From the NCBI GenBank assembly GCA_002472275.1, contig DKRQ01000019.1, positions 140,279-204,278 of the forward strand: 64,000 nt of DNA, in the 5' to 3' direction. The position numbers and the translations under genes were made by a program. Each line of letters starts with the position of its first letter. The stretch's first letter is position 1. The stretch is from Bacillales bacterium UBA7278. Its GTDB lineage: Bacteria > Bacillota_I > Bacilli_A > RFN20 > CAG-826. The notes below the pieces were generated by a model. The model was given only the letters and a program-made list of their open reading frames with translations. It searched no databases and was not told where the DNA came from. Positions 3,044 through 63,868 of the stretch are shown piece by piece.

Positions 3044-3703
3044 ATGAGATACGACGCGATCATCTTCGATTTGGATGGCACCCTCCTCGACACGATTGAG
3101 GACATCTCCGCGGCGATCAATTCCGCGCTAGAAAAATGCGGCTATAGCCATCGTTACGATAAAGAGGGAACCAAGCACCTTATCGGCGATGGGGCGGATG
3201 CCTTGGTCAGAAGGGCACTTAAGGAAAAAAGCGGCGATTTGCAGGCGTTTAACGAGCTAAAAGGCTTCTATATGCCCATCTATCGCGAGCATAACTGCGA
3301 TAAGGCGAAACCGTTTCAGGGGCTCGTCGAGACCCTCGTTTCCCTTGAAAAGGAAGGCGTTTCCCTATTCGTGGCGACCAATAAGCCGGACGCCTTGGCC
3401 CAGGTGGTCCTCGCCAAGAAAATGGGCGAGGTCCATTTCAAGGCGATCGTCGGCGTGAAAGAAGGCGACCCCGTGAAACCCAATCCCTATAGCGTCAACC
3501 TCATCATGGACCGTTTTGGCTTAGAAAAAGAAAGAACCCTATATGTGGGGGATTCCCATGTCGACCTGGACACCGCGGCAAACGCGGGTCTAGACGCTTG
3601 CCTTTGCCTTTGGGGCTATGACTTCTATACCGATGAACTCAAGGCCCGCGCGGGCTATTTGGCCAAGGTTCCCGCCGATCTACTAGAAATCGTAAGGGGT
3701 TAA
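3044..3703 (+). CDS. HAD-superfamily hydrolase (phosphoglycolate phosphatase-like)
   Basis: MRYDAIIFDLDGTLLDT (DxDGT motif I), KPNP and GDS.D motifs; tracked ORF 2714 start is an out-of-frame overlap with hydA, real start ATG 3044 (or 3032). Confidence 0.8.
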   Translation: MRYDAIIFDLDGTLLDTIEDISAAINSALEKCGYSHRYDKEGTKHLIGDGADALVRRALKEKSGDLQAFNELKGFYMPIYREHNCDKAKPFQGLVETLVSLEKEGVSLFVATNKPDALAQVVLAKKMGEVHFKAIVGVKEGDPVKPNPYSVNLIMDRFGLEKERTLYVGDSHVDLDTAANAGLDACLCLWGYDFYTDELKARAGYLAKVPADLLEIVRG

Positions 3704-3744: not shown

Positions 3745-5094
3745 ATGCGTAAAGTCGTTCTGTTCAATTCATTAGGCAAAAAGATGGAGGAATTCGTCCC
3801 CATAGAGCAGGGGAAGGTTTCCTTTTACGTCTGCGGCCCAACCGTCTATAACTCGCCCCATATCGGCAACATGCGTCCTGTCATCGTCTTCGACGTATGG
3901 AGGAGGCTATTCAAGGCCATCGGCTATGAGGTGACCTACGTTTCCAATTACACCGACGTCGACGATAAGATCATCAATAGGGCAAAGGAACTTGGAATCT
4001 CCGAGAAGGAGCTCACTGAAGAGGTCATCGCCGAATTCCGCGACATGGTCGAAAAAGTCGGCTCTCTGCAACCCGACATCACACCCAAGCCCACCGTCTA
4101 CATGGACGAGATGATTTCCTATATCGGCGATATGGTGAAATCGGGCGCGGCCTACGAAGCCGATAACGGCGACGTCTATTTCTCCGTGGAATCGGTAGGG
4201 GATTACGGCTCTTTGTCCGGGAACACTCCCGAAGCCCTTAACGCTGGCGCCCGTATCGAGGTTAGGGGAGCGAAACGTTCTCCGCTAGATTTCGCCCTTT
4301 GGAAGAAAACCGAAGAGGGCATCCGTTGGGATACCCCATGGAGTCAGGGACGTCCAGGATGGCACACCGAATGCTGCGTCATGATCAACTCGATCTTCAA
4401 GGAGCAGGGCGGCCTCATCGATATCCACGGCGGAGGATTCGATTTGAAGTTCCCCCATCACGAGAACGAAATCGCTCAGGCCGAGGCCCATAACCATCAC
4501 AAACTTGCCCATTATTGGATCCATAACGGTTTCATCAACATCGATAACGAGAAGATGTCCAAATCCCTTGGCAACGTTTTGCTCGCAAAAGACATCATCG
4601 CCAAATTCGGCGGCATGCCTTTCCGCCTGATGGTCCTCAACGCCCATTACAGGGCCCCGCTTTCCTTCACCGAGGAAACGATCGGGGAGGCCGAGAAATC
4701 CTATCAGAAGATCCTTTTGGCCTATAAGCAGGCCGCGGTGGCTCTTCAATTAGAAGGCATCGATCCATCTTCCTTAAAAGGAGAGGGGGAGGACAAGTTC
4801 CTCGACGCGATGTGCGACGATCTCAATACGCCTAACGCCCTCTCCGAGCTCTACGCCGAAATCAAGGTCCTTAACCAATCCCTTAGGATGCGCCCGCTTA
4901 ATCTAGACTCGGTCAAGGGTAGCCTAGGCAAGCTAAACGATTATCTGAATATCCTTGGTATCCAAGTTCCTTATCCCGTTCTTTCCGATGAGGATAAGGC
5001 CCTCTATAAAGCCTATATAGACGCGAAGGCGGCGAAGGATTTTGCCAAATCCGATGAGCTGCGCGCCCTTCTTTCCGCGAAAGGAATCCTCTAA
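3745..5094 (+). CDS. cysS: cysteinyl-tRNA synthetase
   Basis: CGPTVYNSPHIGN (HIGH) and KMSKSLGN motifs, class I aaRS length. Confidence 0.95.
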   Translation: MRKVVLFNSLGKKMEEFVPIEQGKVSFYVCGPTVYNSPHIGNMRPVIVFDVWRRLFKAIGYEVTYVSNYTDVDDKIINRAKELGISEKELTEEVIAEFRDMVEKVGSLQPDITPKPTVYMDEMISYIGDMVKSGAAYEADNGDVYFSVESVGDYGSLSGNTPEALNAGARIEVRGAKRSPLDFALWKKTEEGIRWDTPWSQGRPGWHTECCVMINSIFKEQGGLIDIHGGGFDLKFPHHENEIAQAEAHNHHKLAHYWIHNGFINIDNEKMSKSLGNVLLAKDIIAKFGGMPFRLMVLNAHYRAPLSFTEETIGEAEKSYQKILLAYKQAAVALQLEGIDPSSLKGEGEDKFLDAMCDDLNTPNALSELYAEIKVLNQSLRMRPLNLDSVKGSLGKLNDYLNILGIQVPYPVLSDEDKALYKAYIDAKAAKDFAKSDELRALLSAKGIL

Positions 5095-5107
5095 AGGGGT
5101 ATTTCAA

Positions 5108-5833
5108 ATGGAAGAGAAGCGTTATATCATTGCAGGCAGAAACGCAGCCCGGGAAACGATTCTTTCCGGGAACGCTAAGTCGGTTCTTATCAAAGAGAAC
5201 CTGCAAGGTGACCCCGTGGTCCGCTTGGCAAAGGAAAAGGGAATCCCCGTCCTCTTCCGTAGCGATTTCGAACTTACCAGACTTTGCGGTACCTCCCATC
5301 ATCAGGGTATCGCGGTCGAGGCTAAGCCTTACGAGTATTACGATCTTTCTTCCATCATCGCGTCCGCATCCGGCAAAAAGGATTCGACCGTTTTGATTTT
5401 AGACGGCATTGAGGATCCCAATAACCTCGGCGCGATCCTACGCTCCTGCGACGCTTTCGGCGTCGACGGGGTCGTCATCAAATCCAGGGGCGAAGTGGGA
5501 CTCACCCCAACCGTTGCCAAGGTCTCCACCGGCGCGATCTCCTACGTGAAGGTCGCCTGCGTTCCCAATCTCTCCCAAGCCATCTCCGAACTCAAGGACG
5601 CCGGATACTGGGTCGTCTCTAGCGACGGCTCGGCCAAGATGTCCTATGAAGACGTCGACTATTCCGGCAAGATCGCCTTGGTCGTCGGAAGCGAGGGATT
5701 CGGTATCTCCAAACTTGTGCTTTCCCGTAGCGACTTCATCGTGAAGATCCCGATGGTAGGGCATGTCAATTCGCTTAACGCCTCGGTGGCCGCCGGCATC
5801 CTAATCGCCCATATTTCCCATAAAAGATCGTAA
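5108..5833 (+). CDS. rlmB: TrmH/SpoU-family 23S rRNA 2'-O-methyltransferase (RlmB/YacO-like)
   Basis: SpoU methylase motifs (LILDGIEDPNNLGAILRSCDAFG; VVGSEGFGIS); conserved position after cysS as in Bacillus; start ATG 5108 not tracked 5042. Confidence 0.8.
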   Translation: MEEKRYIIAGRNAARETILSGNAKSVLIKENLQGDPVVRLAKEKGIPVLFRSDFELTRLCGTSHHQGIAVEAKPYEYYDLSSIIASASGKKDSTVLILDGIEDPNNLGAILRSCDAFGVDGVVIKSRGEVGLTPTVAKVSTGAISYVKVACVPNLSQAISELKDAGYWVVSSDGSAKMSYEDVDYSGKIALVVGSEGFGISKLVLSRSDFIVKIPMVGHVNSLNASVAAGILIAHISHKRS

Positions 5834-5869
5834 AACCCGTATATTTTGCAAAATTGCGAGGTTTTACAA

Positions 5870-6505
5870 ATGCCAAAAACAAAAGATGTTTTTCATTCCC
5901 CTTTGGAGAATCTTTCCGACGAAGAGCTGATCGTCCATCTCCGCTCAGGAGAGGAAGCGGCCCGCGCGACTTTGGTCGAACGTTACTTCCGTCAAAACGA
6001 ATTGAGGCTCCGCTCCTCCGTTCTTCCACCTACCCCTTTTCTAGCGGAATGGCAAAGGAAGGAAGTCTATTTCAGGACCCTTTGCCACGCCTCCGACACG
6101 TATCGATTCGGAAATAAAAGCACCTTCTCGACTTATTTCACGGCGTTACTGAAAAGGGAAATCGCCGAAGAGAACAGGAAGGAAAGCCACCGCGTCGAGG
6201 CGATCGCCCTTAGCCTTGACCATGATCCAACCCGTCAATTCGACGAGAGCTTGCTGCTATCGGAAGCGGTGCCCGCCTATGGAGGGAAGGACCCGGTTGT
6301 CTTAGAGGCCTACCATTCCTCTTTGGCGGATTCCCTTCGCAAGCCGCCTGCTGGCTATTCCAAAAAAGTGGTGGACGTCGTGCGTCTTCTCATCGAGGGC
6401 TTCAGCCTCCCCGAGGCGAGCCTCATGATCAAGGAAAAGCCGAACACGGTGCAGAACTGGTTCAGGCGCCTAAGGAAAGAGAAGAAGTGGCCCTTCGGGG
6501 AATAG
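5870..6505 (+). CDS. sigma-70 family sigma factor, SigH-like
   Basis: Region-2-like DEELIVHLRSGEEAARATLVERYF...STFSTYF and C-terminal region-4 HTH; position after rlmB matches Bacillus sigH; GAGGT RBS favours ATG 5870 over TTG 5846. Confidence 0.55.
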   Translation: MPKTKDVFHSPLENLSDEELIVHLRSGEEAARATLVERYFRQNELRLRSSVLPPTPFLAEWQRKEVYFRTLCHASDTYRFGNKSTFSTYFTALLKREIAEENRKESHRVEAIALSLDHDPTRQFDESLLLSEAVPAYGGKDPVVLEAYHSSLADSLRKPPAGYSKKVVDVVRLLIEGFSLPEASLMIKEKPNTVQNWFRRLRKEKKWPFGE

Positions 6506-38133: not shown

Positions 38134-39327
38134 ATGGCAAAAGAAAAATTCAACCGTGACCGCGTCCACATTAACGTTGGTACCATCGGCCACGTTGACC
38201 ACGGCAAGACCACCCTTACCGCGGCCATCACCCACGTCCTCTCCCTCAAGGGCCTAGCCAAGGATATGGCTTACGGCGCCATCGACGCCACCCCTGAAGA
38301 AAGGGCTCGTGGTATCACGATCAACTCGGCCCACGTCGAGTACGCGACCGAAAAGCGTCACTACGCTCACGTCGACTGCCCGGGGCACGCCGACTACATC
38401 AAGAACATGATCACCGGCGCCGCCCAGATGGACGCTGCCATCCTCGTCGTCGCCGCTACCGACGGCGTCATGCCGCAGACCAAAGAGCACGTCTTGCTCG
38501 CCCGTCAGGTCGGTGTTCCTCAGATCATCGTCTTCCTCAACAAGTGCGATATGGTCGATGACCCCGAACTCATTGACCTCGTCGAAATGGACGTCCGCGA
38601 ACTCCTCAACTCCTATGACTTCCCTGGTGATGAAATCCCCGTCATCCGCGGTTCCGCCCTCAAGGCCGGCCAGGCCACTTCCGCCGATGCTCCTGAAGCC
38701 AAGTGCATCATCGAGCTCATGGAAGCCCTCGACACCTATGTCAAGGAACCCGTCCGCGACGATGCGAAGCCCTTCCTTCTCCCGATCGAAGACGTCATGA
38801 CCATCTCCGGCCGTGGCACCGTCGTCACCGGCCGTGTCGAGCGTGGTGTCATCAAGCTCAACGACGAAGCCGAAATCGTCGGTATCCGTCCGACCCAGAA
38901 GACCGTCGTCACCGGCCTCGAAATGTTCCGCAAGACCCTCGACTTCGCTCAGGGCGGCGACAACATCGGTGCCCTTCTCCGTGGTATCACCCATGACCAG
39001 GTCGAGCGTGGCCAAGTCCTCGCCAAGCCGGGCTCCATCGTCCCCCACGACAAGTTCACCGCTACCACCTACATCCTCAAGAAGGAAGAAGGTGGCCGTC
39101 ACACTCACTTCCTCAACGGTTATCGTCCTCAGTTCTTCTTCAGGACCACTGACATCACTGGCACCATCACCCTCCCCGCTGGGACCGACATGGTCATGCC
39201 TGGTGACAACGTCACCTTCACCGTCGAACTCATCCACCCCATCGCCATGGAAAAGGGAACCAAGTTCTCCATCCGTGAAGGTGGTAGGACCGTCGGCGCC
39301 GGCACCGTTGCCGAAATTCTCCACTGA
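38134..39327 (+). CDS. tuf: elongation factor Tu
   Basis: [25 protein letters not shown] motifs, 397 aa. Confidence 0.98.
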
Positions 39328-58963: not shown

Positions 58964-60400
58964 ATGCCGAAAACCAAAGTACCGCAGAACGTGAAGCCCG
59001 AAGGCTATTGGAGGGCCATCGGGGCTTTTTCCATCGATTTGGCCCTAACGATCGTGGCCATCGTCCTCCTCTATGTCTCGATTGGCAACACCCTTATTTA
59101 TAAGGCCGTCGACTATGCGGGCGACATCGCCAAGATGGACGCCTTCATGGAAGGGACCGCCCTCGTCAATATCAAGGCCCCCAAATCCTATGGCTATTTG
59201 GACTTCCAGGACAAGGAAGGGGAAGTGCCGGCCTATCAAAAGTACATCGATCGCGTTTGGAACTATTTCACCGTCTTATGCGCGGACCCCAATTCGGGAT
59301 ATGACATCAACCCGCCGATGACCTCCTTCGATAACGAACACGACTTCGTGCCCTTCACCGGCGAGAAGACCGTCGAAAACATCGGCAAATGGGTCTATGA
59401 CCATTACTTTACCAGCAATCTTTGGAAGGCCCCTGTGAAAGAGGGCACCCAGGATCCCGACTATTCGAAGGCCCCGATTCCCGCCGAAGACCCGACGGGA
59501 CGCGAGGCCAAACTGAAGACCGCGATGTATGACGTTTCCACGACCACCCCAAAAGGAACCTACGTCTTCACCGTGAGCCACATCTTGGCCCAGAACAAAT
59601 ACGCCGCTTTGGCCAAAACCGAAAGGCTCCATGGCTGGTTCGCCTGGATGCCTTGGTTCGCGGTGGCCCCCGTCATCTTCTTCTTCGTCATCCCCGTGGC
59701 GAGCCGTAACGGCAGGACCATCGGCAAAAGGATCGTCGGAACAGCGGTATTAGGAAGCGACGGCTATACCGCCAAGAAGCTCAACATCGTCCTTCACTAT
59801 TTCTTCCCGACCATCTATTGGTTCATTCTGATGTTGCCTTATCAAGGCATAACCTTTCCCCTCTTCGTCTTATTGCTCCTAGTGGAATACATGACTTTGG
59901 TCATGACCCACAACCATCAATCCATCCACGACAAGATCGCCCAGACGATCGTAGTCAACGCCAAGCAATCCACGTGGTTCGCGAGTAGGGAGGATGAAGA
60001 GGAATATCTCAAGAGCCACCCCAATTCCTACGTCGCAAAGCTTCGCAGGGACGAGGAATGGGAATCCAATCCCCGTTACGCGGCGACCACCGCGGCCATC
60101 GCCGCCCAGGACGCCATCGTCGACTCCACGACGATCGGCAGGGCCAGGAAGGAAGCCGAGGCCATCTCCTCCTTCGACGAATTCGAGCGCAAATCCGATG
60201 AGGATTACGCGAGAAGGGAATCCGAGGCAAAGGCTAACTCCGAGCTTCAGGAAGAGCCCGAAGAGGAACTATCCGAGCAGCAGAAGCAAGAACTCGCCGA
60301 CCTCGCCAAGATGGAAGGCCTAAGCGAAGAAGAAGGCTCCGCCGCCCTCGAGGAAGAAGAACCCGAGGGCGAGGAAGACGACTTCGCCGACAAGAAGTAA
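58964..60400 (+). CDS. RDD-family membrane protein with large extracytoplasmic insert and acidic C-terminal tail
   Basis: YWRAIGAFSIDLALTIV, GKRIVGTAVL, HDKIAQTIVV (RDD motifs); tail EEEPEGEEDDFADKK. Confidence 0.6.
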   Translation: MPKTKVPQNVKPEGYWRAIGAFSIDLALTIVAIVLLYVSIGNTLIYKAVDYAGDIAKMDAFMEGTALVNIKAPKSYGYLDFQDKEGEVPAYQKYIDRVWNYFTVLCADPNSGYDINPPMTSFDNEHDFVPFTGEKTVENIGKWVYDHYFTSNLWKAPVKEGTQDPDYSKAPIPAEDPTGREAKLKTAMYDVSTTTPKGTYVFTVSHILAQNKYAALAKTERLHGWFAWMPWFAVAPVIFFFVIPVASRNGRTIGKRIVGTAVLGSDGYTAKKLNIVLHYFFPTIYWFILMLPYQGITFPLFVLLLLVEYMTLVMTHNHQSIHDKIAQTIVVNAKQSTWFASREDEEEYLKSHPNSYVAKLRRDEEWESNPRYAATTAAIAAQDAIVDSTTIGRARKEAEAISSFDEFERKSDEDYARRESEAKANSELQEEPEEELSEQQKQELADLAKMEGLSEEEGSAALEEEEPEGEEDDFADKK

Positions 60401-60407
60401 TCGATTG

Positions 60408-60434
60408 ACCCCAGCGAGAAATCCTGGGGTTTTT
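60408..60434 (+). terminator. Rho-independent terminator ending the ESCRT-like operon
   Basis: ACCCCAG-(9 nt)-CTGGGGT plus TTTT. Confidence 0.6.
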
Positions 60435-60443
60435 CGTTGCCAC

Positions 60444-60479
60444 AAAACTTGGTCATGCAAAATTGCATAAGTAAGTTTT
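60444..60479 (+). repeat. 36-bp perfect direct repeat, left copy
   Basis: AAAACTTGGTCATGCAAAATTGCATAAGTAAGTTTT identical to 61824-61859; contains 6-2-6 inverted repeat ATGCAA-aa-TTGCAT. Confidence 0.85.
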
Positions 60480-60497
60480 CCGTGATAAAGTTTTGTC

Positions 60498-61349
60498 ATG
60501 GAATTCGATTATTCAACCAGAAAAGATTTGAAGTTTCTTATAGAAGTAGGGGGGCGGACCGTAGAGGAGATTGCCTCCGAAACGGGTTTTTCGGTACGGA
60601 CGATCGAAAGCGTTGCCTTAGGGGAAACTAAAGCCTCGGATCAGGTAAATGAAAAAATCTATTCGCTCCTTTTCGACCAAGGGTACTCCTTGAATCGAGC
60701 GAAAGAGGAGACTTTGGCTGAGAAATATGGGAAAGCCCTCTTGTTCCATGGGTCCAAGAAAGGACTAAAGGAGATTGTCGCGGACGGCTCCCGAGCCAAT
60801 TGCGATTTTGGGACAGGCTTTTATTTGGGCGAAAGATTTGATTCCGCAGCAAGTTTTGTCTTCGCTAATGAAGGAAGCAGCGTCTATGCGTTTTCCTTTG
60901 ATCCGAAAGGGCTCAAAGGCGTTGAACTTGAATGCGATTTGAAATGGATGCTCCTCGTTTGCGCTTTTAGGGGAACGCTAGGCCAATTTGCGAATCACCC
61001 TAGGATTAAGCAAGCCATGGAAACCATTGCGGGGGCCGATTATATCAAAGCCCCGATTGCTGACAACAGGATGTTTTTCGTCATGGATGCCTATGCGAAA
61101 GGGGAGATGACAGACGTGGAGGCTATCCATTGCTTGTCTGCCTCGAGTCTAGGGAAGCAGACCGTCATCAAAACCAAGAAGGCGATTAAGCGCCTTGTTT
61201 TCCTCGAGCGTTTCTATCTATGCCAAGGTGAGAGGCAACACTTCGCCATGGAAGCCGAGGAAAGATCCAAACTGATAGAAACGAAACTCAAATACGCCAA
61301 GCGGGAATTCCGTGGAGAGGGTCAATTTATTGACGAATTGCTGTCATGA
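60498..61349 (+). CDS. HTH-DUF3990 fusion protein
   Basis: N-terminal HTH (RTVEEIASETGFSVRTIESVALGE) then LLFHGSKKGL...CDFGTGFYLGER DUF3990 signatures; homologous to 25231-25908 product. Confidence 0.6.
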   Translation: MEFDYSTRKDLKFLIEVGGRTVEEIASETGFSVRTIESVALGETKASDQVNEKIYSLLFDQGYSLNRAKEETLAEKYGKALLFHGSKKGLKEIVADGSRANCDFGTGFYLGERFDSAASFVFANEGSSVYAFSFDPKGLKGVELECDLKWMLLVCAFRGTLGQFANHPRIKQAMETIAGADYIKAPIADNRMFFVMDAYAKGEMTDVEAIHCLSASSLGKQTVIKTKKAIKRLVFLERFYLCQGERQHFAMEAEERSKLIETKLKYAKREFRGEGQFIDELLS

Positions 61350-61825
61350 GAGAGTTTGATATAGAAGGATTAAGGCAAGCCGAGTTTCAAGCGGAGATTT
61401 TCGAGGCTTCCGCCACCAAAACCGATTGTTCTTCGCTTATTTTCCTTCGTCGCTATGGCAAATCCAAATTGGCTTTGTCTTTCGACCGGGGCACGGCCGA
61501 CTATTCCTTGACGGTCGAAGATGCGTTGCGGGAAATCGAAGAAGAATTTGGCCATTCCTCCTATGGCAAAGACAAGTATCCCGCTTCGGTCCTCTATTGG
61601 CTTGGATATCAATACCGTTACATCGCCTATACAAGGCAATGCGAAACCCGTTTCCTTTTCCGCCTCTTTCCTCCGAAGAAGATGGCGTCGACCTATTTGG
61701 CGTTCCATACCCAAAGCCAGGAATGGGTGGTGGCATCATGGCTGGAGATTGTAGAAAAGGACGAAAAAATCTTCTCTCCGTTTGAAAGAGCCAAAGCTTA
61801 TTACAGGAAAGTTTACGGGCTTTAA
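61346..61825 (+). CDS. DUF3791-like partner protein
   Basis: Homologous to N-terminal domain of 24612-25250 product; 4-nt overlap with upstream gene. Confidence 0.5.
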   Translation: MREFDIEGLRQAEFQAEIFEASATKTDCSSLIFLRRYGKSKLALSFDRGTADYSLTVEDALREIEEEFGHSSYGKDKYPASVLYWLGYQYRYIAYTRQCETRFLFRLFPPKKMASTYLAFHTQSQEWVVASWLEIVEKDEKIFSPFERAKAYYRKVYGL

Positions 61826-61859
61826 AACTTGGTCATGCAAAATTGCATAAGTAAGTTTT
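61824..61859 (+). repeat. 36-bp perfect direct repeat, right copy
   Basis: Identical to 60444-60479; 63 nt upstream of nadE. Confidence 0.85.
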
Positions 61860-61922
61860 GAGCCCTTTTCCATTGGATTTACCCTTGTTCCCAATTGGGG
61901 GCGCGAGGGGGATAATTGGAAC

Positions 61923-62666
61923 ATGGCAAAAATCAATCTAGAAACAGAGCTGCCCAAGGTAATCGATTGGGTGCGCCAAACAGTCGGCAGCTGCAACGTC
62001 GTCATCGGCATTTCCGGAGGAAAGGATTCCTCGGTCGTCGCCGCCTTGTGCGTCAAGGCATTAGGCAAGGACAAGGTCTTCGGCGTCATGATGCCTAACC
62101 GCGTCCAGGACGACATCGATAAATCCGAACTCCTCATCAAGACCCTCGGCATCAAAAGCGCCCGCATCAACATCGGGGACACGGTGGACGCCCTGACTAA
62201 CGACACCTGCTCTTCGATGGGCATCGAAAAGAAGGATTTGAATCTCCTTTTCACCTCCAACACGCCCGCCCGCATCAGGATGACCACCCTCTATGGCGTG
62301 GCCGCGATCATCGGCAATGCCAGGGTCGCCAATACCTGCAACCTCTCCGAGGACTACGTCGGCTATAGCACCAAATTCGGCGATGCGGCAGGGGATTTCT
62401 CCCCGCTTTCTCGCTTCACCGCGACCGAGGTGATGGAGATCGGCGACATGCTTGGATTGCCTTTCGAACTAAGCCACAAGGTCCCAACCGACGGCATGTG
62501 CGGGCTGACCGATGAAGACCGCTTTGGCTTTACTTATGCCGAGCTCGACGCCTATCTAAGGGATGGCGTCAAACCTAGCCCCGAGAAACTAGAGAAAATC
62601 GAGAGGATGCATCGCGCCGGACTCCATAAGCTATTGCCGATGCCCTGCTACGAAATCAAGGAGTAA
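61923..62666 (+). CDS. nadE: NH3-dependent NAD+ synthetase
   Basis: PP-loop IGISGGKDSSVVAALC; 247 aa short-form NadE. Confidence 0.85.
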   Translation: MAKINLETELPKVIDWVRQTVGSCNVVIGISGGKDSSVVAALCVKALGKDKVFGVMMPNRVQDDIDKSELLIKTLGIKSARINIGDTVDALTNDTCSSMGIEKKDLNLLFTSNTPARIRMTTLYGVAAIIGNARVANTCNLSEDYVGYSTKFGDAAGDFSPLSRFTATEVMEIGDMLGLPFELSHKVPTDGMCGLTDEDRFGFTYAELDAYLRDGVKPSPEKLEKIERMHRAGLHKLLPMPCYEIKE

Positions 62667-62671
62667 CCCCC

Positions 62672-63868
62672 ATGCGTTTTAGACCGATTGTCACGTCCCT
62701 TTTGGACACCGACCTATACAAGTTCAACATGAACCAGGTCATCTTCCATAAACACAACGACCTGCTTGGCGAATACATCTTCAAATGCCGTAACCACGGC
62801 GTCGTCTTCACCGAGGAGATGGTCAAGGAAATCAACGAGCAGATCGACAGCCTTTGCCGTCTGCGTTTCCGCAGCGAGGAACTCGAATACCTCCGTTCCA
62901 TCCGTTTCCTCAAACCCGACTACATCGAATTCCTTCGCCTTTGGCATCCGATGAGGGACTACGTCACCTGCGGCCTTATGCCTAACGGGGAACTTAACCT
63001 TAAGGTCAAAGGGCCCCTTTTCTCGGCGATGCAATTCGAGATCTACCTCCTGGAGATCGTCAACGAGGTCTATTTCCGCTTCACCTACGATTACGACACC
63101 TTGATCGCCGGGGCCAGGGAACGCCTAGAAGAGAAAATCAAGAAGTTCAATGACGGGGCCTATGCCTTCAAATTCGCCGAATTCGGCTGCAGAAGGAGGC
63201 TTTCCTTGGAATGGGAGGACGAGATGGTCGCTTCCCTTTTGAAGAGGACCCATAACCTCGTCGGCACGAGCAACGTCTACCTCGCCAAAAAATATGGGAT
63301 CACCCCAATCGGCACCTACGCGCACGAATTCGTGCAAATGTATCAGGGCATCCCGACCATCCCTCTTGCCTATACCAATGCGATCGCTTTGCGGGACTGG
63401 TATGACGAATATAAAGGCGATAACGGTACCGCGTTAACCGATACCTTAACCACCGATTTGTTCCTCCGCGACTTCGACCGTTCGATGTGCAACAACTTCA
63501 CCGGCGTCCGTCATGACTCGGGCGACCCCTACGAATGGGGCGAGAAGATCCTCTCCCATTACAGGCGTTACGACATCGACACCCATACCAAGACGCTTCT
63601 ATTCTCGGATTCGCTTACCTGCGAAAAGGCCGAGGCGCTTTACCAATACTTCAAGGGCCAAGCCAGGGTTGCCTTTGGCATCGGCACGCATTTTAGCAAC
63701 GACACGGGCGTCGAGGCCCTCAACATCGTCATCAAGCTCCAATACGTCGGCGGCAATCCCGTCGCCAAGCTTAGCGACGTCCCCGGCAAGATGATGTGCC
63801 AAGACCCCGATTACGCGGACTATCTCCACCGCGCGGTCGAGTTCCGCCTTAAAAGCGAGGGCAAATGA
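62672..63868 (+). CDS. pncB: nicotinate phosphoribosyltransferase
   Basis: N-terminal LLDTDLYKFNMNQVIFHKH as in PncB; ~400 aa; adjacent to nadE. Confidence 0.75.
   Translation: MRFRPIVTSLLDTDLYKFNMNQVIFHKHNDLLGEYIFKCRNHGVVFTEEMVKEINEQIDSLCRLRFRSEELEYLRSIRFLKPDYIEFLRLWHPMRDYVTCGLMPNGELNLKVKGPLFSAMQFEIYLLEIVNEVYFRFTYDYDTLIAGARERLEEKIKKFNDGAYAFKFAEFGCRRRLSLEWEDEMVASLLKRTHNLVGTSNVYLAKKYGITPIGTYAHEFVQMYQGIPTIPLAYTNAIALRDWYDEYKGDNGTALTDTLTTDLFLRDFDRSMCNNFTGVRHDSGDPYEWGEKILSHYRRYDIDTHTKTLLFSDSLTCEKAEALYQYFKGQARVAFGIGTHFSNDTGVEALNIVIKLQYVGGNPVAKLSDVPGKMMCQDPDYADYLHRAVEFRLKSEGK

What the first reader, a model, noticed from the sequence alone, without database searches (positions are those of the whole stretch)
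60444..61859. Low-GC DUF3990/DUF3791 cassette bracketed by perfect 36-bp direct repeats containing a 6-2-6 palindrome; related TGCAAAATTGC motif upstream of the SigH-like gene
Seen: AAAACTTGGTCATGCAAAATTGCATAAGTAAGTTTT occurs identically at 60444-60479 and 61824-61859, flanking a 1.34-kb segment whose GC is visibly lower than its surroundings. The repeat contains the inverted repeat ATGCAA-aa-TTGCAT. TTTGCAAAATTGCGAGG also lies just upstream of the SigH-like sigma gene start (5845-5861). Inference: either target-site/att duplications from cassette insertion (horizontal acquisition) or a repeated operator for a dimeric regulator, with left copy 18 nt before the cassette and right copy 63 nt before nadE, possibly linking these genes to a SigH-like regulon.
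Basis: seen in the sequence. Interest (0 to 1): 0.55.

Follow-up and report, generated by a model that had tools for sequence, protein, structure and literature searches.

The report
Palindrome-bounded mobile toxin-like gene cassette
The two identical 36-base repeats are the built-in boundary elements (promoter/operator at the front, hairpin terminator at the back) of a small, horizontally moving two-gene toxin/defence-like cassette. The same bracketed design recurs in dozens of gut and rumen bacteria, so the repeats are not scars of insertion into host DNA.

Summary
A perfect 36-bp direct repeat (60444-60479, 61824-61859) brackets a 1344-bp low-GC segment.

- **Genes.** The segment encodes an Xre-HTH + DUF3990 (ADP-ribosyltransferase-clan) protein and an overlapping 159-aa all-alpha partner. 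The partner does not pass Pfam DUF3791.
- **Family feature.** The repeat is a diverged member of a family-wide dyad-symmetric element, consensus AACTTGTTTGTnCAnnTTGnACAAACAAGTT. It lies upstream of essentially every homologous cassette examined and at the partner gene's stop codon in about half.
- **Front copy.** It carries the cassette promoter's -35 (17-nt spacer, TATAAT in relatives). It is most likely the operator of the cassette's own HTH.
- **Back copy.** In this window it sits inside a -23 kcal/mol GC-clamped hairpin followed by TTTT, which looks like a terminator.
- **Not a target duplication.** Four related genomes have an empty tuf-nadE site with no repeat copy. Near-identical cassettes occur in unrelated contexts, with homology ending at or near the palindromes. 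Cassette GC3 is about 2.9 SD below the window's genes. So the cassette is a discrete, horizontally moving module that carries both repeats.
- **Chance match.** The TGCAAAATTGC match near the 'SigH-like' gene is at chance level.

How the cassette moves and what the back copy does remain inferred.

The parts
60409..60434 (+). Terminator-like hairpin of the upstream RDD-family gene (CCCCAG-9 nt-CTGGGG + TTTTT). It marks the end of host sequence before the cassette.
   Evidence: Read directly. The pattern scan does not list it, because the loop is 9 nt and the scan allows at most 8.
60444..60479 (+). Left 36-bp repeat: dyad-symmetric boundary element, the putative operator of the cassette's HTH. 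It contains the promoter -35 (TTGCAT, 60463-60468).
   Evidence: Exact repeat. Family-wide element upstream of the DUF3990 gene: 73 copies. The -35 lies inside the palindrome at a fixed offset in 44 of 61 distinct upstream regions. 0 of 36 mismatches between strains.
60486..60491 (+). Putative -10 (TAAAGT), 17 nt after TTGCAT and 6 nt before the ATG. This implies a leaderless mRNA.
   Evidence: Sequence. The same geometry occurs in the closest relatives L087-L090 and L104, with the -10 ending 7 nt before the ATG and TATAAT in L088-L090 and L104. The strict consensus scan did not call it.
60498..61349 (+). Gene 1: 283-aa protein with an N-terminal Xre-type HTH and a C-terminal DUF3990 (ADP-ribosyltransferase-clan) domain. 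It looks like a toxin or effector.
   Evidence: Pfam DUF3990 E 4.7e-26. AF2 pLDDT 93.7. Foldseek hits to Xre-RES bound to promoter DNA, a diphtheria-toxin homologue, and SinR, HigA and DdrO HTH domains. PADLOC PDC-M13A/B, PDC-M42A and PDC-M10A. DUF3990 is listed in Pfam's ART clan (PMC7955679) and occurs as an Rhs C-terminal domain (PMC4524185).
61346..61825 (+). Gene 2: 159-aa all-alpha partner protein, overlapping gene 1 by 4 nt (ATGA). Probably an antitoxin or immunity partner. Its TAA stop overlaps the right repeat by 2 nt.
   Evidence: ORF. No Pfam, NCBIfam or PADLOC hit for the window protein. The homologue in L103 hits PADLOC PDC-M42B at 1.1e-6. One homologue is named 'antitoxin' by NCBI. 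AF2 pLDDT 92.3, with no PDB fold match.
61824..61859 (+). Right 36-bp repeat: identical boundary element starting inside the stop codon of gene 2.
   Evidence: The position (-2 relative to the ORF2 end) is conserved across the family. 36 copies at this position. 0 of 36 mismatches between strains.
61817..61869 (+). Extended hairpin GGGCTT-T-[repeat]-GAGCCC followed by TTTT: the likely intrinsic terminator of the cassette. Position 61869 is also where homology with strain L087 ends.
   Evidence: RNA fold -23.3 kcal/mol, z -5.64, 0 of 200 shuffles as stable. Homology with L087 ends at 61869. The consensus terminator scan did not list it.
61888..61916 (+). Promoter-like site of nadE (TTCCCA-17-GATAAT), ending 6 nt before the nadE ATG and lying downstream of and separate from the right repeat.
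   Evidence: 9 of 12 match; consensus match only.
61923..63868 (+). nadE (61923-62666) and pncB (62672-63868): the host NAD synthesis and salvage operon that borders the cassette here and in two related genomes.
   Evidence: Pfam NAD_synthase 2.4e-48 and NAPRTase 1.7e-62. Synteny in L007, L187 and L008-L012.

Best explanation
The two 36-bp repeats are the 5' and 3' boundary elements of a self-contained two-gene module of about 1.4 kb that moves horizontally. Gene 1 encodes an Xre-type HTH fused to an ADP-ribosyltransferase-fold DUF3990 domain. Gene 2 encodes a 159-aa all-alpha partner. Both repeat copies belong to the module and are not duplicated host target.

**Left copy.** It is a dyad-symmetric operator overlapping the module's promoter: -35 TTGCAT inside the repeat, a 17-nt spacer, -10 TAAAGT, and a leaderless ATG 6 nt later. 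The module's own HTH protein, alone or with the partner, binds it as a dimer and autorepresses. Xre-RES and HigBA toxin-antitoxin systems work this way.

**Right copy.** It begins inside the partner gene's stop codon. With a GC clamp (GGGCTT/GAGCCC) and TTTT it forms a strong hairpin that ends cassette transcription before nadE. Because it is an identical operator, the same protein probably binds it as a second site (looping or roadblock).

**Shown:** repeat anatomy, family-wide conservation and positions, promoter geometry, domain and fold assignments, empty sites, and modular distribution.

**Inferred:** HTH binding to the repeat, terminator activity, toxin/antitoxin roles, and the way the module moves.
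For: 1. **The architecture is family-wide.** In 36 of 60 distinct homologous loci, the regions upstream of gene 1 and at the gene 2 stop share a repeat scoring at least 15, against 1 of 300 shuffled controls.
2. **The element is specific to the cassette.** A regex for the consensus over 1.75 Mb of fetched loci finds 73 copies just upstream of the DUF3990 gene and 36 at the ORF2 stop. Four lie elsewhere, of which 2 look genuine, and none in the NadE loci that lack a cassette apart from one spurious weak match. A scan of viral contigs gave only 8 hits.
3. **Positions are fixed.** The downstream copy starts at -2 relative to the ORF2 end, so the TAA is part of the element. The upstream copy ends 18-19 nt (window clade) or 41-47 nt before the ATG.
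4. **Promoter geometry.** 44 of 61 distinct upstream regions have TTGAAC, TTGTAC or TTGCAT inside the palindrome at offset 16-17, a 16-18-nt spacer (17 nt in 37) and a -10. The -10 is perfect TATAAT in 36 and TG-extended in 24.
5. **Dyad symmetry.** 88% of cells pair in 76 distinct copies, against 29-42% when the partner is slid. Subfamilies with different inner sequences (window, L090, L131, the TTCG clade) are each palindromic.
6. **The 5' and 3' copies of one cassette share variants**, for example TTCG..CGAA in L095. A locus's own 3' copy is the best match to its 5' copy in 10 of 36 loci.
7. **Helix and half-site change together.** Recognition-helix ISR to ISK coincides with half-site TTTG to TTCG.
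8. **Gene 1 has a confident Xre HTH and an ART-like fold.** The best structural analogue is Xre-RES bound to promoter DNA. That complex represses through a promoter palindrome and has two DNA-binding sites (PMC12204516).
9. **Both window repeats are invariant between strains.** They show 0 of 72 mismatches in L087, while gene 1 differs at 4.5% and the adjacent 18-nt spacer at 5 of 18 positions.
10. **The right copy sits in a strong hairpin** of -23.3 kcal/mol, z -5.6.
11. **Empty sites.** L008, L010, L011 and L012 have tuf-terminator-nadE with no copy of the element.
12. **Modularity.** Cassettes 91-97% identical lie in different contexts, with homology limited to roughly palindrome-to-palindrome (L113/L115, L108/L118, L121/L124, L133/L139). 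L152/L153 break exactly at the 3' palindrome edge.
13. **GC3 outlier** in the window, L187 and L007.
Against: - No binding or expression data exist, so operator and terminator roles rest on geometry and analogy.
- A 31-36-bp palindrome is longer than a typical single Xre-dimer operator.
- Within the main 31-nt class, covariation barely exceeds the shuffled controls (score 0.091 against 0.079; 22 of 500 shuffles reach it). The symmetry there could reflect conservation alone.
- The ISR/ISK versus TTTG/TTCG co-variation is one clade, hence one event.
- In the main family the 3' copy is usually followed by only 1-3 T, so it is a poor canonical terminator. The pattern scan did not call the window's promoter or terminator.
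- About 40% of loci lack a recognisable 3' copy, so it is dispensable.
- The distant cassette in L007 is bracketed by a perfect 31-bp repeat that is not palindromic.
- An HTH-less DUF3990 pair on a Lactobacillus plasmid also has 16-nt flanking repeats. Flanking repeats may therefore have a cause other than HTH binding.
- The perfect 36/36 identity in the window contrasts with about 75% identity between the two copies in the nearest relative, L187. That needs either selection on both sites or gene conversion.
Confidence: 0.62

Rival explanations
1. The palindromes are primarily mobility determinants: recombination or transposition ends (hairpin-forming sites recognised by a trans-acting recombinase or transposase, or cruciform hot spots for host nucleases) that define and move the cassette. 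Any regulatory role is secondary. This rival is not exclusive of the best explanation.
For: - Homology between near-identical cassettes in different contexts ends within 0-3 nt of a palindrome edge at 6 of 11 mapped breakpoints, including both the inner and outer edges of the 3' copy.
- Many homologues sit on contigs of about 1.3-1.6 kb, which suggests assemblies break at the cassette ends.
- Two loci carry a third copy bracketing other cargo. L099 has a CPBP protease plus an Xre membrane protein. L158 has a 78-bp repeat around a 4.5-kb metabolic segment.
- Even a non-palindromic cassette (L007) and an HTH-less pair (L191) have flanking direct repeats.
- IS110-family or other transposase genes lie next to the cassette in L187 and L007.
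Against: - No recombinase or transposase is encoded in the cassette or consistently next to it.
- There is no target-site duplication and no conserved target motif outside the palindromes.
- Five of 11 breakpoints lie 10-43 nt away from an edge.
- The centres of the two copies in one cassette often differ, which argues against active site-specific exchange between them.
- Solo copies are very rare.
- In a well-sampled human-gut species, context changes do not map to the palindromes.
- The IS110 in L187 is inserted about 90 nt upstream of the palindrome, not in it.
Confidence: 0.22
2. The repeats are a target-site or att duplication: a host sequence present once before insertion and duplicated when the cassette integrated.
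For: - Perfect 36/36 identity of the two copies.
- The cassette is compositionally foreign.
- L007 also has perfect 31-bp flanking repeats of a different sequence.
Against: - Empty tuf-nadE sites in four related genomes carry no copy.
- The same element family flanks cassettes in dozens of unrelated contexts and hosts.
- It contains the cassette's own -35 and stop codon.
- Distinct 5' and 3' copies are both carried between contexts.
- The nearest relative, L187, has the same element type at both ends, already diverged.
Confidence: 0.05
3. The repeats are operators of a host regulator that co-controls the cassette, nadE and a SigH-like gene.
For: - TGCAAAATTGC occurs once more, at 5847-5857, 14 nt upstream of an ATG.
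- The right copy lies 63 nt upstream of nadE.
- The cassette neighbours NAD genes in three related genomes.
Against: - An 11-mer match is what chance gives for a 36-mer against 128 kb, and shuffles reach the count in 13 of 100.
- The full palindrome does not match at 5847.
- The ORF there has no sigma-70 Pfam hit at E <= 0.001.
- The motif occurs nowhere else in the 64 kb.
- nadE in cassette-free relatives lacks the motif.
- The nadE promoter-like site is downstream of the repeat.
Confidence: 0.03

Closest known systems
Xre-RES type II toxin-antitoxin systems (e.g. Pseudomonas putida Xre-RES; PDB 9r35; PMC12204516)
   Same: - An Xre-type HTH combined with an ADP-ribosyltransferase-clan toxin domain.
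- A two-gene overlapping operon.
- A palindromic repeat in the promoter used for autorepression.
- A complex with two DNA-binding sites.
- It is the best structural analogue of gene 1.
   Different: - Here the HTH is fused to the ART-like domain in one polypeptide.
- The second gene is an unrelated all-alpha protein with no HTH.
- The ART-clan domain is DUF3990, not RES.
- A second, identical copy of the palindrome sits at the 3' end of the operon, 1.38 kb away.
PADLOC candidate defence systems PDC-M42 (A+B), PDC-M13 and PDC-M10
   Same: - The DUF3990 part of gene 1 matches PDC-M13B (1.7e-13), PDC-M13A, PDC-M42A and PDC-M10A.
- The partner of the homologous cassette L103 matches PDC-M42B at 1.1e-6.
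   Different: - The window's own partner protein does not reach the PDC-M42B model.
- The window protein matches those models over residues 79-238 only; whether the PADLOC models include an N-terminal HTH was not examined (profile lengths 152-280).
- These candidates are uncharacterised, and no paper on PDC-M42 was found.
- Nothing is on record about flanking palindromes.
Integron gene cassettes with attC sites; pdif (Xer) modules of Acinetobacter plasmids (from my own knowledge)
   Same: - Small one- or two-gene modules, often toxin-antitoxin pairs, bracketed by copies of an imperfect palindrome.
- The 3' site commonly abuts or overlaps the stop codon.
- Modules occur in different contexts and occasionally in series (L099, L158).
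   Different: - No integrase or Xer-type gene is seen nearby.
- There are no arrays in most loci.
- The element shows no GTTRRRY/RYYYAAC cores and no 11-6-11 dif layout.
- The 5' copy carries the cassette's own promoter.
- Both copies travel with the cassette instead of being shared with a neighbour.
IS200/IS605-type elements and their passenger-carrying derivatives (PATEs); REP/RAYT systems (from my own knowledge)
   Same: - Hairpin-forming sequences in direct orientation at both ends.
- No terminal inverted repeats in the usual sense.
- No target-site duplication.
   Different: - No Y1 transposase in the cassette.
- No conserved tetranucleotide cleavage or target motif.
- Long, near-perfect stems rather than short imperfect hairpins with bulges.
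- The element is not dispersed in the genome: there are only two copies in 64 kb.

Membership tests
Pfam DUF3990 (PF13151, ADP-ribosyl clan): gene 1 | Score above the Pfam gathering threshold over the full domain | tested here: met
   91.7 bits against a cut-off of 32.2, residues 82-234 matching profile positions 3-151 of 152.
ADP-ribosyltransferase fold: gene 1 C-terminal domain | ART-like fold and an NAD-binding motif triad (H-Y-E or R-S-E type) | tested here: inconclusive
   The confident model (pLDDT 93.7) hits the Xre-RES complex chain 9r35_A (probability 0.99) and a diphtheria-toxin homologue (E 0.22). Invariant H84-G85 and Y109 (F83, S86 and E112 nearly invariant; motifs LFHGS, GFYLGE) resemble PARP-type H and Y motifs, a resemblance I recall rather than tested. 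The catalytic acid was not identified. Clan membership is from PMC7955679.
Pfam DUF3791 (PF12668): gene 2 | Score above the Pfam gathering threshold | tested here: not met
   No hit for the window protein even at E <= 10. The best in the family is L088 at E 0.067, 13.6 bits against a cut-off of 25.
Type II toxin-antitoxin module (Xre-RES-like) | Two small co-oriented, overlapping genes, one carrying a toxin-type domain | tested here: met
   The genes overlap by 4 nt (61346-61349). Gene 1 has the DUF3990/ART-clan domain.
Type II toxin-antitoxin module (Xre-RES-like) | Antitoxin carries the DNA-binding domain and is a separate protein from the toxin | tested here: not met
   The HTH is N-terminally fused to the ART-like protein. 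Gene 2 is all-alpha with no HTH family hit and no fold match.
Type II toxin-antitoxin module (Xre-RES-like) | Palindromic operator overlapping the promoter | tested here: met
   The dyad element contains the -35 at a fixed offset in 44 of 61 upstream regions. The window has TTGCAT-17-TAAAGT. Protein binding itself was not tested.
Type II toxin-antitoxin module (Xre-RES-like) | Toxicity of one product neutralised by the other | not testable with these tools
   Needs expression experiments.
PADLOC PDC-M42 candidate defence system | Both components (A and B) match | tested here: inconclusive
   The window's gene 1 hits PDC-M42A at 2.5e-6, but PDC-M13B is better at 1.7e-13. The window's gene 2 has no hit. 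Its homologue in L103 hits PDC-M42B at 1.1e-6.
Target-site duplication / att site | Empty sites in relatives carry one copy of the duplicated sequence | tested here: not met
   The tuf-nadE intergenic regions of L008, L010, L011 and L012 (100-230 bp) contain no copy. No cassette-free strain of the window's own species was found.
Integron gene cassette | attC with RYYYAAC / GTTRRRY cores, an integrase and array context | tested here: not met
   I saw no such cores when reading the consensus AACTTGTTTGTnCAnnTTGnACAAACAAGTT. The flanks examined hold diverse housekeeping or accessory genes. No formal attC or IntI search was run.
IS200/IS605-type or PATE element | Y1 transposase in cis or conserved cleavage tetranucleotides next to the end hairpins | tested here: not met
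   There is no such gene in the cassette. The flanks just outside the palindromes show no shared motif or duplication. A trans-acting enzyme cannot be excluded.
Intrinsic (Rho-independent) terminator: right copy | Stable GC-containing stem-loop followed by a U-tract | tested here: inconclusive
   The window hairpin is -23.3 kcal/mol, z -5.6, followed by UUUU, but the consensus scan does not list it. In the main family the 3' copies are followed by only 1-3 T.
Known RNA families (Rfam 15) | Covariance-model match in 60300-62000 | tested here: not met
   No match at E <= 1.

The most novel reading that the evidence does not exclude
The cassette may represent an undescribed kind of mobile gene module in Firmicutes: a self-regulated ART-toxin or defence pair whose identical hairpin-forming operator sites at both ends also act as the recombination or breakpoint sites that move it. 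Occasionally the same sites bracket other cargo, as in L099 and L158. This would be functionally analogous to integron attC or pdif modules but with no known recombinase.

In this bacterial clade the module repeatedly occupies the tuf / NAD-salvage junction. In L187 its 3' palindrome lies 15 nt before pncA with no separate promoter. An NAD-consuming enzyme and NAD salvage could therefore be transcriptionally coupled.
Probability: 0.2. Interest if true: 0.75.

Novelty: new variant of a known kind. Interest (0 to 1): 0.55.

Why it matters
DUF3990 proteins and their partners are uncharacterised. They appear as Rhs toxin tips and as candidate anti-phage systems.

- **Testable regulation.** The work defines a large HTH-fused subfamily with a concrete regulatory design: a promoter-embedded dyad operator repeated at the 3' end. 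It gives exact sites for binding, reporter and transcript-end experiments.
- **A tractable case of cassette movement.** The pair behaves as a discrete unit of about 1.43 kb that jumps between contexts, with breakpoints clustered at the palindromes. This offers a way to study how small toxin or defence cassettes move without their own recombinase.
- **A hint at substrate.** The recurrent placement beside NAD synthesis and salvage genes points to NAD as the enzyme's substrate.
- **Annotation.** Long perfect direct repeats around a low-GC gene pair should not be read automatically as att sites.

Tried and rejected
1. **Empty site in the window's own species.** Exact-protein look-ups of gene 1, gene 2, NadE and the RDD protein returned only contigs that carry the cassette or break inside the 36-mer. 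That is consistent with a repeat longer than an assembly k-mer of about 31 (my inference). No cassette-free strain was found.
2. **Assembly artefact.** Rejected, because independent contigs span both junctions.
3. **A phage-borne or generally dispersed repeat.** The viral scan gave 8 hits, some inside genes, roughly at chance level by my estimate. There were none in 80 NadE loci lacking the cassette.
4. **A known RNA element upstream of nadE.** Rfam found none.
5. **The partner protein as a recombinase or nuclease.** It has no family hit, an all-alpha fold and no PDB match. I saw no HUH-type motif by eye.
6. **Target duplications or target motifs outside the palindromes.** None found.
7. **Covariation statistics within the 31-nt class.** Weak, because the class is too conserved.
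9. **Human-gut species L177-L186 as a source of breakpoints.** Its context changes map to a diverged 120-510-bp duplication of an acetyltransferase gene, not to the palindromes. This was left unexplained.
10. **Literature.** Four papers mention DUF3990, one mentions DUF3791 and none mentions PDC-M42. None describes flanking repeats.
Full report
**1. Observation**

The 36-mer AAAACTTGGTCATGCAAAATTGCATAAGTAAGTTTT occurs exactly twice in the 64-kb window, at 60444-60479 and 61824-61859, both on the + strand. No further match appears at up to 3 mismatches, and none is expected by chance.

The repeat has two nested dyads: outer arms AAAACTT/AAGTTTT, and inner arms ATGCAA/TTGCAT around AA. It brackets 1344 bp holding two overlapping + strand ORFs, 60498-61349 (283 aa) and 61346-61825 (159 aa). 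The left copy ends 18 nt before the first ATG. The right copy starts at the second base of the second ORF's TAA and ends 63 nt before nadE.

The segment is compositionally foreign:
- GC is 0.43-0.49 against 0.55-0.62 in the flanks, and GC skew changes sign.
- GC3 is 0.535 and 0.537 against 0.735 +/- 0.07 (minimum 0.572) for 21 long ORFs of the window.

Independent metagenome contigs reproduce both junctions, so this is not an assembly artefact.

**2. The genes**

- **Gene 1.**
  - It matches Pfam DUF3990 (E 4.7e-26) after an N-terminal helix-turn-helix.
  - A confident AlphaFold model (pLDDT 93.7) has an Xre-type HTH (SinR, HigA and DdrO hits). Its C-terminal domain has as best solved analogues the Xre-RES toxin-antitoxin complex bound to promoter DNA and a diphtheria-toxin homologue.
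  - DUF3990 belongs to Pfam's ADP-ribosyltransferase clan (PMC7955679) and occurs as an Rhs effector tip (PMC4524185).
  - Conserved motifs (LFHGS, CDFGxGFYLGE, APIADN) are.
- **Gene 2.**
- It has no Pfam, NCBIfam or PADLOC hit.
  - The protein is confidently all-alpha with no PDB fold match.
  - One homologue is called 'antitoxin' by NCBI.
- **PADLOC.** Gene 1 matches candidate defence components PDC-M13A/B, PDC-M42A and PDC-M10A. The partner in the homologous cassette L103 matches PDC-M42B.

**3. The repeat is a family-wide part of the cassette**

A metagenome scan with a gene 1 alignment returned 80 loci.

- In 36 of 60 distinct loci, the region upstream of gene 1 and the region at the gene 2 stop share a repeat scoring at least 15. 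Only 1 of 300 shuffled controls does.
- In most loci the repeat is a dyad of about 31-33 bp, with consensus AACTTGTTTGTnCAnnTTGnACAAACAAGTT.
- The window's 36-mer is a diverged member. It shares the outer AAACTT/AAGTTT arms. L131 has the same TGCAAAATTGCA centre. The nearest relative, L187, has AAAACTTGCATACACAATATTGAGTAAGTAAGTTT.
- Over 1.75 Mb of fetched DNA the element occurs 73 times just upstream of the DUF3990 gene, 36 times at the ORF2 stop, and essentially nowhere else: two genuine extra copies, and none in cassette-free loci. A viral-contig scan found 8 hits, about chance level.
- Positions are fixed. The 3' copy starts at -2 relative to the ORF2 end. The 5' copy ends 18-19 nt (window clade) or 41-47 nt before the ATG.

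**4. What the copies do**

*The 5' copy.* It overlaps the promoter.
- In 44 of 61 distinct upstream regions, a TTGAAC, TTGTAC or TTGCAT hexamer sits inside the dyad at offset 16-17.
- It is followed by a spacer of 16-18 nt (17 nt in 37 of the 44) and a -10. The -10 is a perfect TATAAT in 36 and TG-extended in 24.
- The window has TTGCAT (60463-60468), 17 nt, TAAAGT (60486-60491), then 6 nt to the ATG. This leaderless layout is shared with its closest relatives.

A dyad overlapping the -35 and spacer, next to a gene that begins with an Xre HTH, is the classical autorepression layout of HigBA and Xre-RES. Xre-RES binds a promoter palindrome and has two DNA-binding sites (PMC12204516).

Support for binding by the cassette's own protein:
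- Subfamilies with different inner sequences are each palindromic.
- The two copies in one cassette share variants (L095).
- Recognition-helix ISR to ISK coincides with half-site TTTG to TTCG, though this is a single clade.
- Both window copies are invariant between strains, with 0 of 72 mismatches. Gene 1 differs at 4.5% and the adjacent 18-nt spacer at 5 of 18 positions.

*The 3' copy.* In the window it is embedded in GGGCTT-T-[repeat]-GAGCCC-TTTT. This folds at -23.3 kcal/mol (z -5.6) and looks like a terminator. nadE has its own promoter-like site further downstream. In the main family the 3' copies lack a good U-tract and are missing or degenerate in about 40% of loci. Their role is therefore less certain; candidates are a second operator, looping, a roadblock, or a weak terminator.

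**5. Not a target duplication, but a mobile module**

NadE-based loci from related genomes (best 72% identity; rumen and gut Bacilli MAGs) show the ancestral order fusA-tuf-nadE-pncB. The tuf / NAD-operon junction varies as follows.

| Genomes | Content of the tuf / NAD-operon junction |
|---|---|
| L008, L010, L011, L012 | Empty: tuf terminator, 100-230 bp, then nadE; no copy of the element |
| L007 | DUF3990 cassette, 34% identity, with a perfect 31-bp non-palindromic repeat |
| Organism of P0002 (L187/L190; PncB 85% identical, the nearest relative) | tuf-cassette-pncA-pncB; an IS110 element about 90 nt upstream of the palindrome in L187 |
| Window | DUF3990 cassette directly upstream of nadE, with about 21 kb of other genes between tuf and the cassette |
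| L083 | RelE-like toxin (by sequence reading) and other genes |
| L009 | Other genes |

The junction is therefore a variable hot spot. In all three occupied genomes the cassette is a GC3 outlier.

Elsewhere, cassettes 91-97% identical sit in unrelated contexts. Homology begins 0-43 nt before the 5' dyad. It ends at the right edge of the 3' dyad, 10 nt beyond it, or exactly at its left edge (L113/L115, L108/L118, L121/L124, L133/L139, L088/L089, L152/L153). The distinct 5' and 3' copies are both carried along. This excludes duplication of a host target and an integron-like sharing of sites. No target duplications or target motifs were seen.

The mechanism of movement is unknown. The options are homologous exchange through conserved flanks such as tuf, a trans-acting hairpin-specific enzyme, or palindrome-stimulated illegitimate recombination.

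**6. The SigH-like link**

TGCAAAATTGC recurs once, at 5847-5857. An 11-mer is about the longest chance match expected for a 36-mer in 128 kb, and shuffles reach the observed count in 13 of 100. The 14-mer dyad does not match there. The ORF at 5846-6505 has no sigma-70 Pfam hit at E <= 0.001. I treat this part of the finding as coincidence.

**7. Verdict**

- The cassette is horizontally acquired and polymorphic among relatives.
- The repeats are cassette-borne regulatory and boundary elements, not att or target duplications.
- They are not connected to nadE or SigH control.

The closest characterised analogue is the Xre-RES toxin-antitoxin system. The cassette differs from it in three ways: a fused HTH-ART protein, an unrelated partner protein, and a second identical operator at the 3' end. 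I rate it a new variant of a known kind and of moderate interest. The more novel reading is that the palindromes double as mobility sites and that the module is coupled to NAD salvage. That reading remains open.

Noticed in passing
window 39327-60400; loci L008, L010-L012: In four related genomes tuf is followed directly by nadE. In this window about 21 kb separates tuf (38134-39327) from the cassette and nadE. It holds several AAA ATPases, an S1C-type protease with zinc ribbons, an RDD protein, and a 523-aa AAA protein with a long PAPEPAP low-complexity tail. This may be a large insertion into the same hot spot.
   Followed up: partly
L187:1774-4852, L007:6356-11933, window 60498-63868: In three related genomes the ART-fold cassette sits immediately upstream of NAD synthesis or salvage genes (nadE-pncB or pncA-pncB). 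In L187 the 3' palindrome ends 15 nt before the pncA ATG with no obvious separate promoter. An NAD-using enzyme and NAD salvage may be co-transcribed.
   Followed up: partly
L099:1001-1549, L106:1906-2392, L129:4242-4754: Macro-domain genes (Pfam E about 1e-39 for L099 and L106) lie directly next to the cassette in three loci. In L099 the macro gene's stop codon overlaps the 5' palindrome. In L106 the gene starts 17 nt after the 3' palindrome. Macro domains reverse ADP-ribosylation, which fits an active transferase.
   Followed up: partly
L099:2943-4476: A third palindrome copy (4446-4476) together with the cassette's degenerate 3' copy brackets a second unit encoding a CPBP-type membrane protease and an Xre-HTH membrane protein (assigned by reading the sequences). 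An HTH-nucleotidyltransferase gene follows. This looks like a short array of palindrome-separated modules.
   Followed up: partly
L158:284-361 and 4864-4940: A 78-bp direct repeat (terminator hairpin plus palindrome, 94% identical) brackets a 4.5-kb segment directly upstream of the DUF3990 cassette. The segment holds what look, by sequence reading, like an AraC-type regulator, two short-chain dehydrogenases and an aminotransferase.
   Followed up: no
L087:4166-4421 (corresponds to window 61870 onward): A strain 97% identical to the window diverges completely 10 nt after the right repeat, into non-coding-looking sequence with repeated aaattccgc motifs. This is possibly the end of another inserted element between the cassette and nadE.
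   Followed up: no
L177-L186 (human-gut species), e.g. L184:3411-3918 and 5905-6413: The cassette with both palindromes is embedded in a diverged (88-95%) direct duplication of 120-510 bp of an acetyltransferase gene. Strains also differ in upstream context (hut genes, or DctPQM, or a sigma-54 activator). This suggests Campbell-type or homologous integration of a larger fragment.
   Followed up: partly
L187:326-1531; L007:8529-9746 (- strand): An IS110-family transposase gene (Pfam DEDD_Tnp_IS110) lies about 240 nt upstream of the cassette in L187 and is absent in L190, which carries the same cassette. A 405-aa ORF that I suspect is a transposase (no family search was run) lies between the cassette and nadE in L007.
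   Followed up: partly
L191:2457-2472 and 3253-3268 (Lactobacillus crispatus plasmid NZ_CP047143.1): A distant, HTH-less DUF3990 gene plus a small downstream ORF is flanked by a 16-nt direct repeat (15 of 16 identical, containing TTAATATTAA). One copy lies 14 nt before the start and the other 4 nt after the stop. Flanking repeats may be a wider habit of DUF3990 pairs.
   Followed up: no
window 60486-60498 and 61911-61923: Both the cassette and nadE have a -10-like hexamer ending 6 nt before the ATG and no Shine-Dalgarno sequence. This organism may commonly use leaderless mRNAs.
   Followed up: no
It follows a SpoU/RlmB-type methylase gene (5042-5833). From my own knowledge, that placement resembles the position of sigH in Bacillus.
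   Followed up: partly
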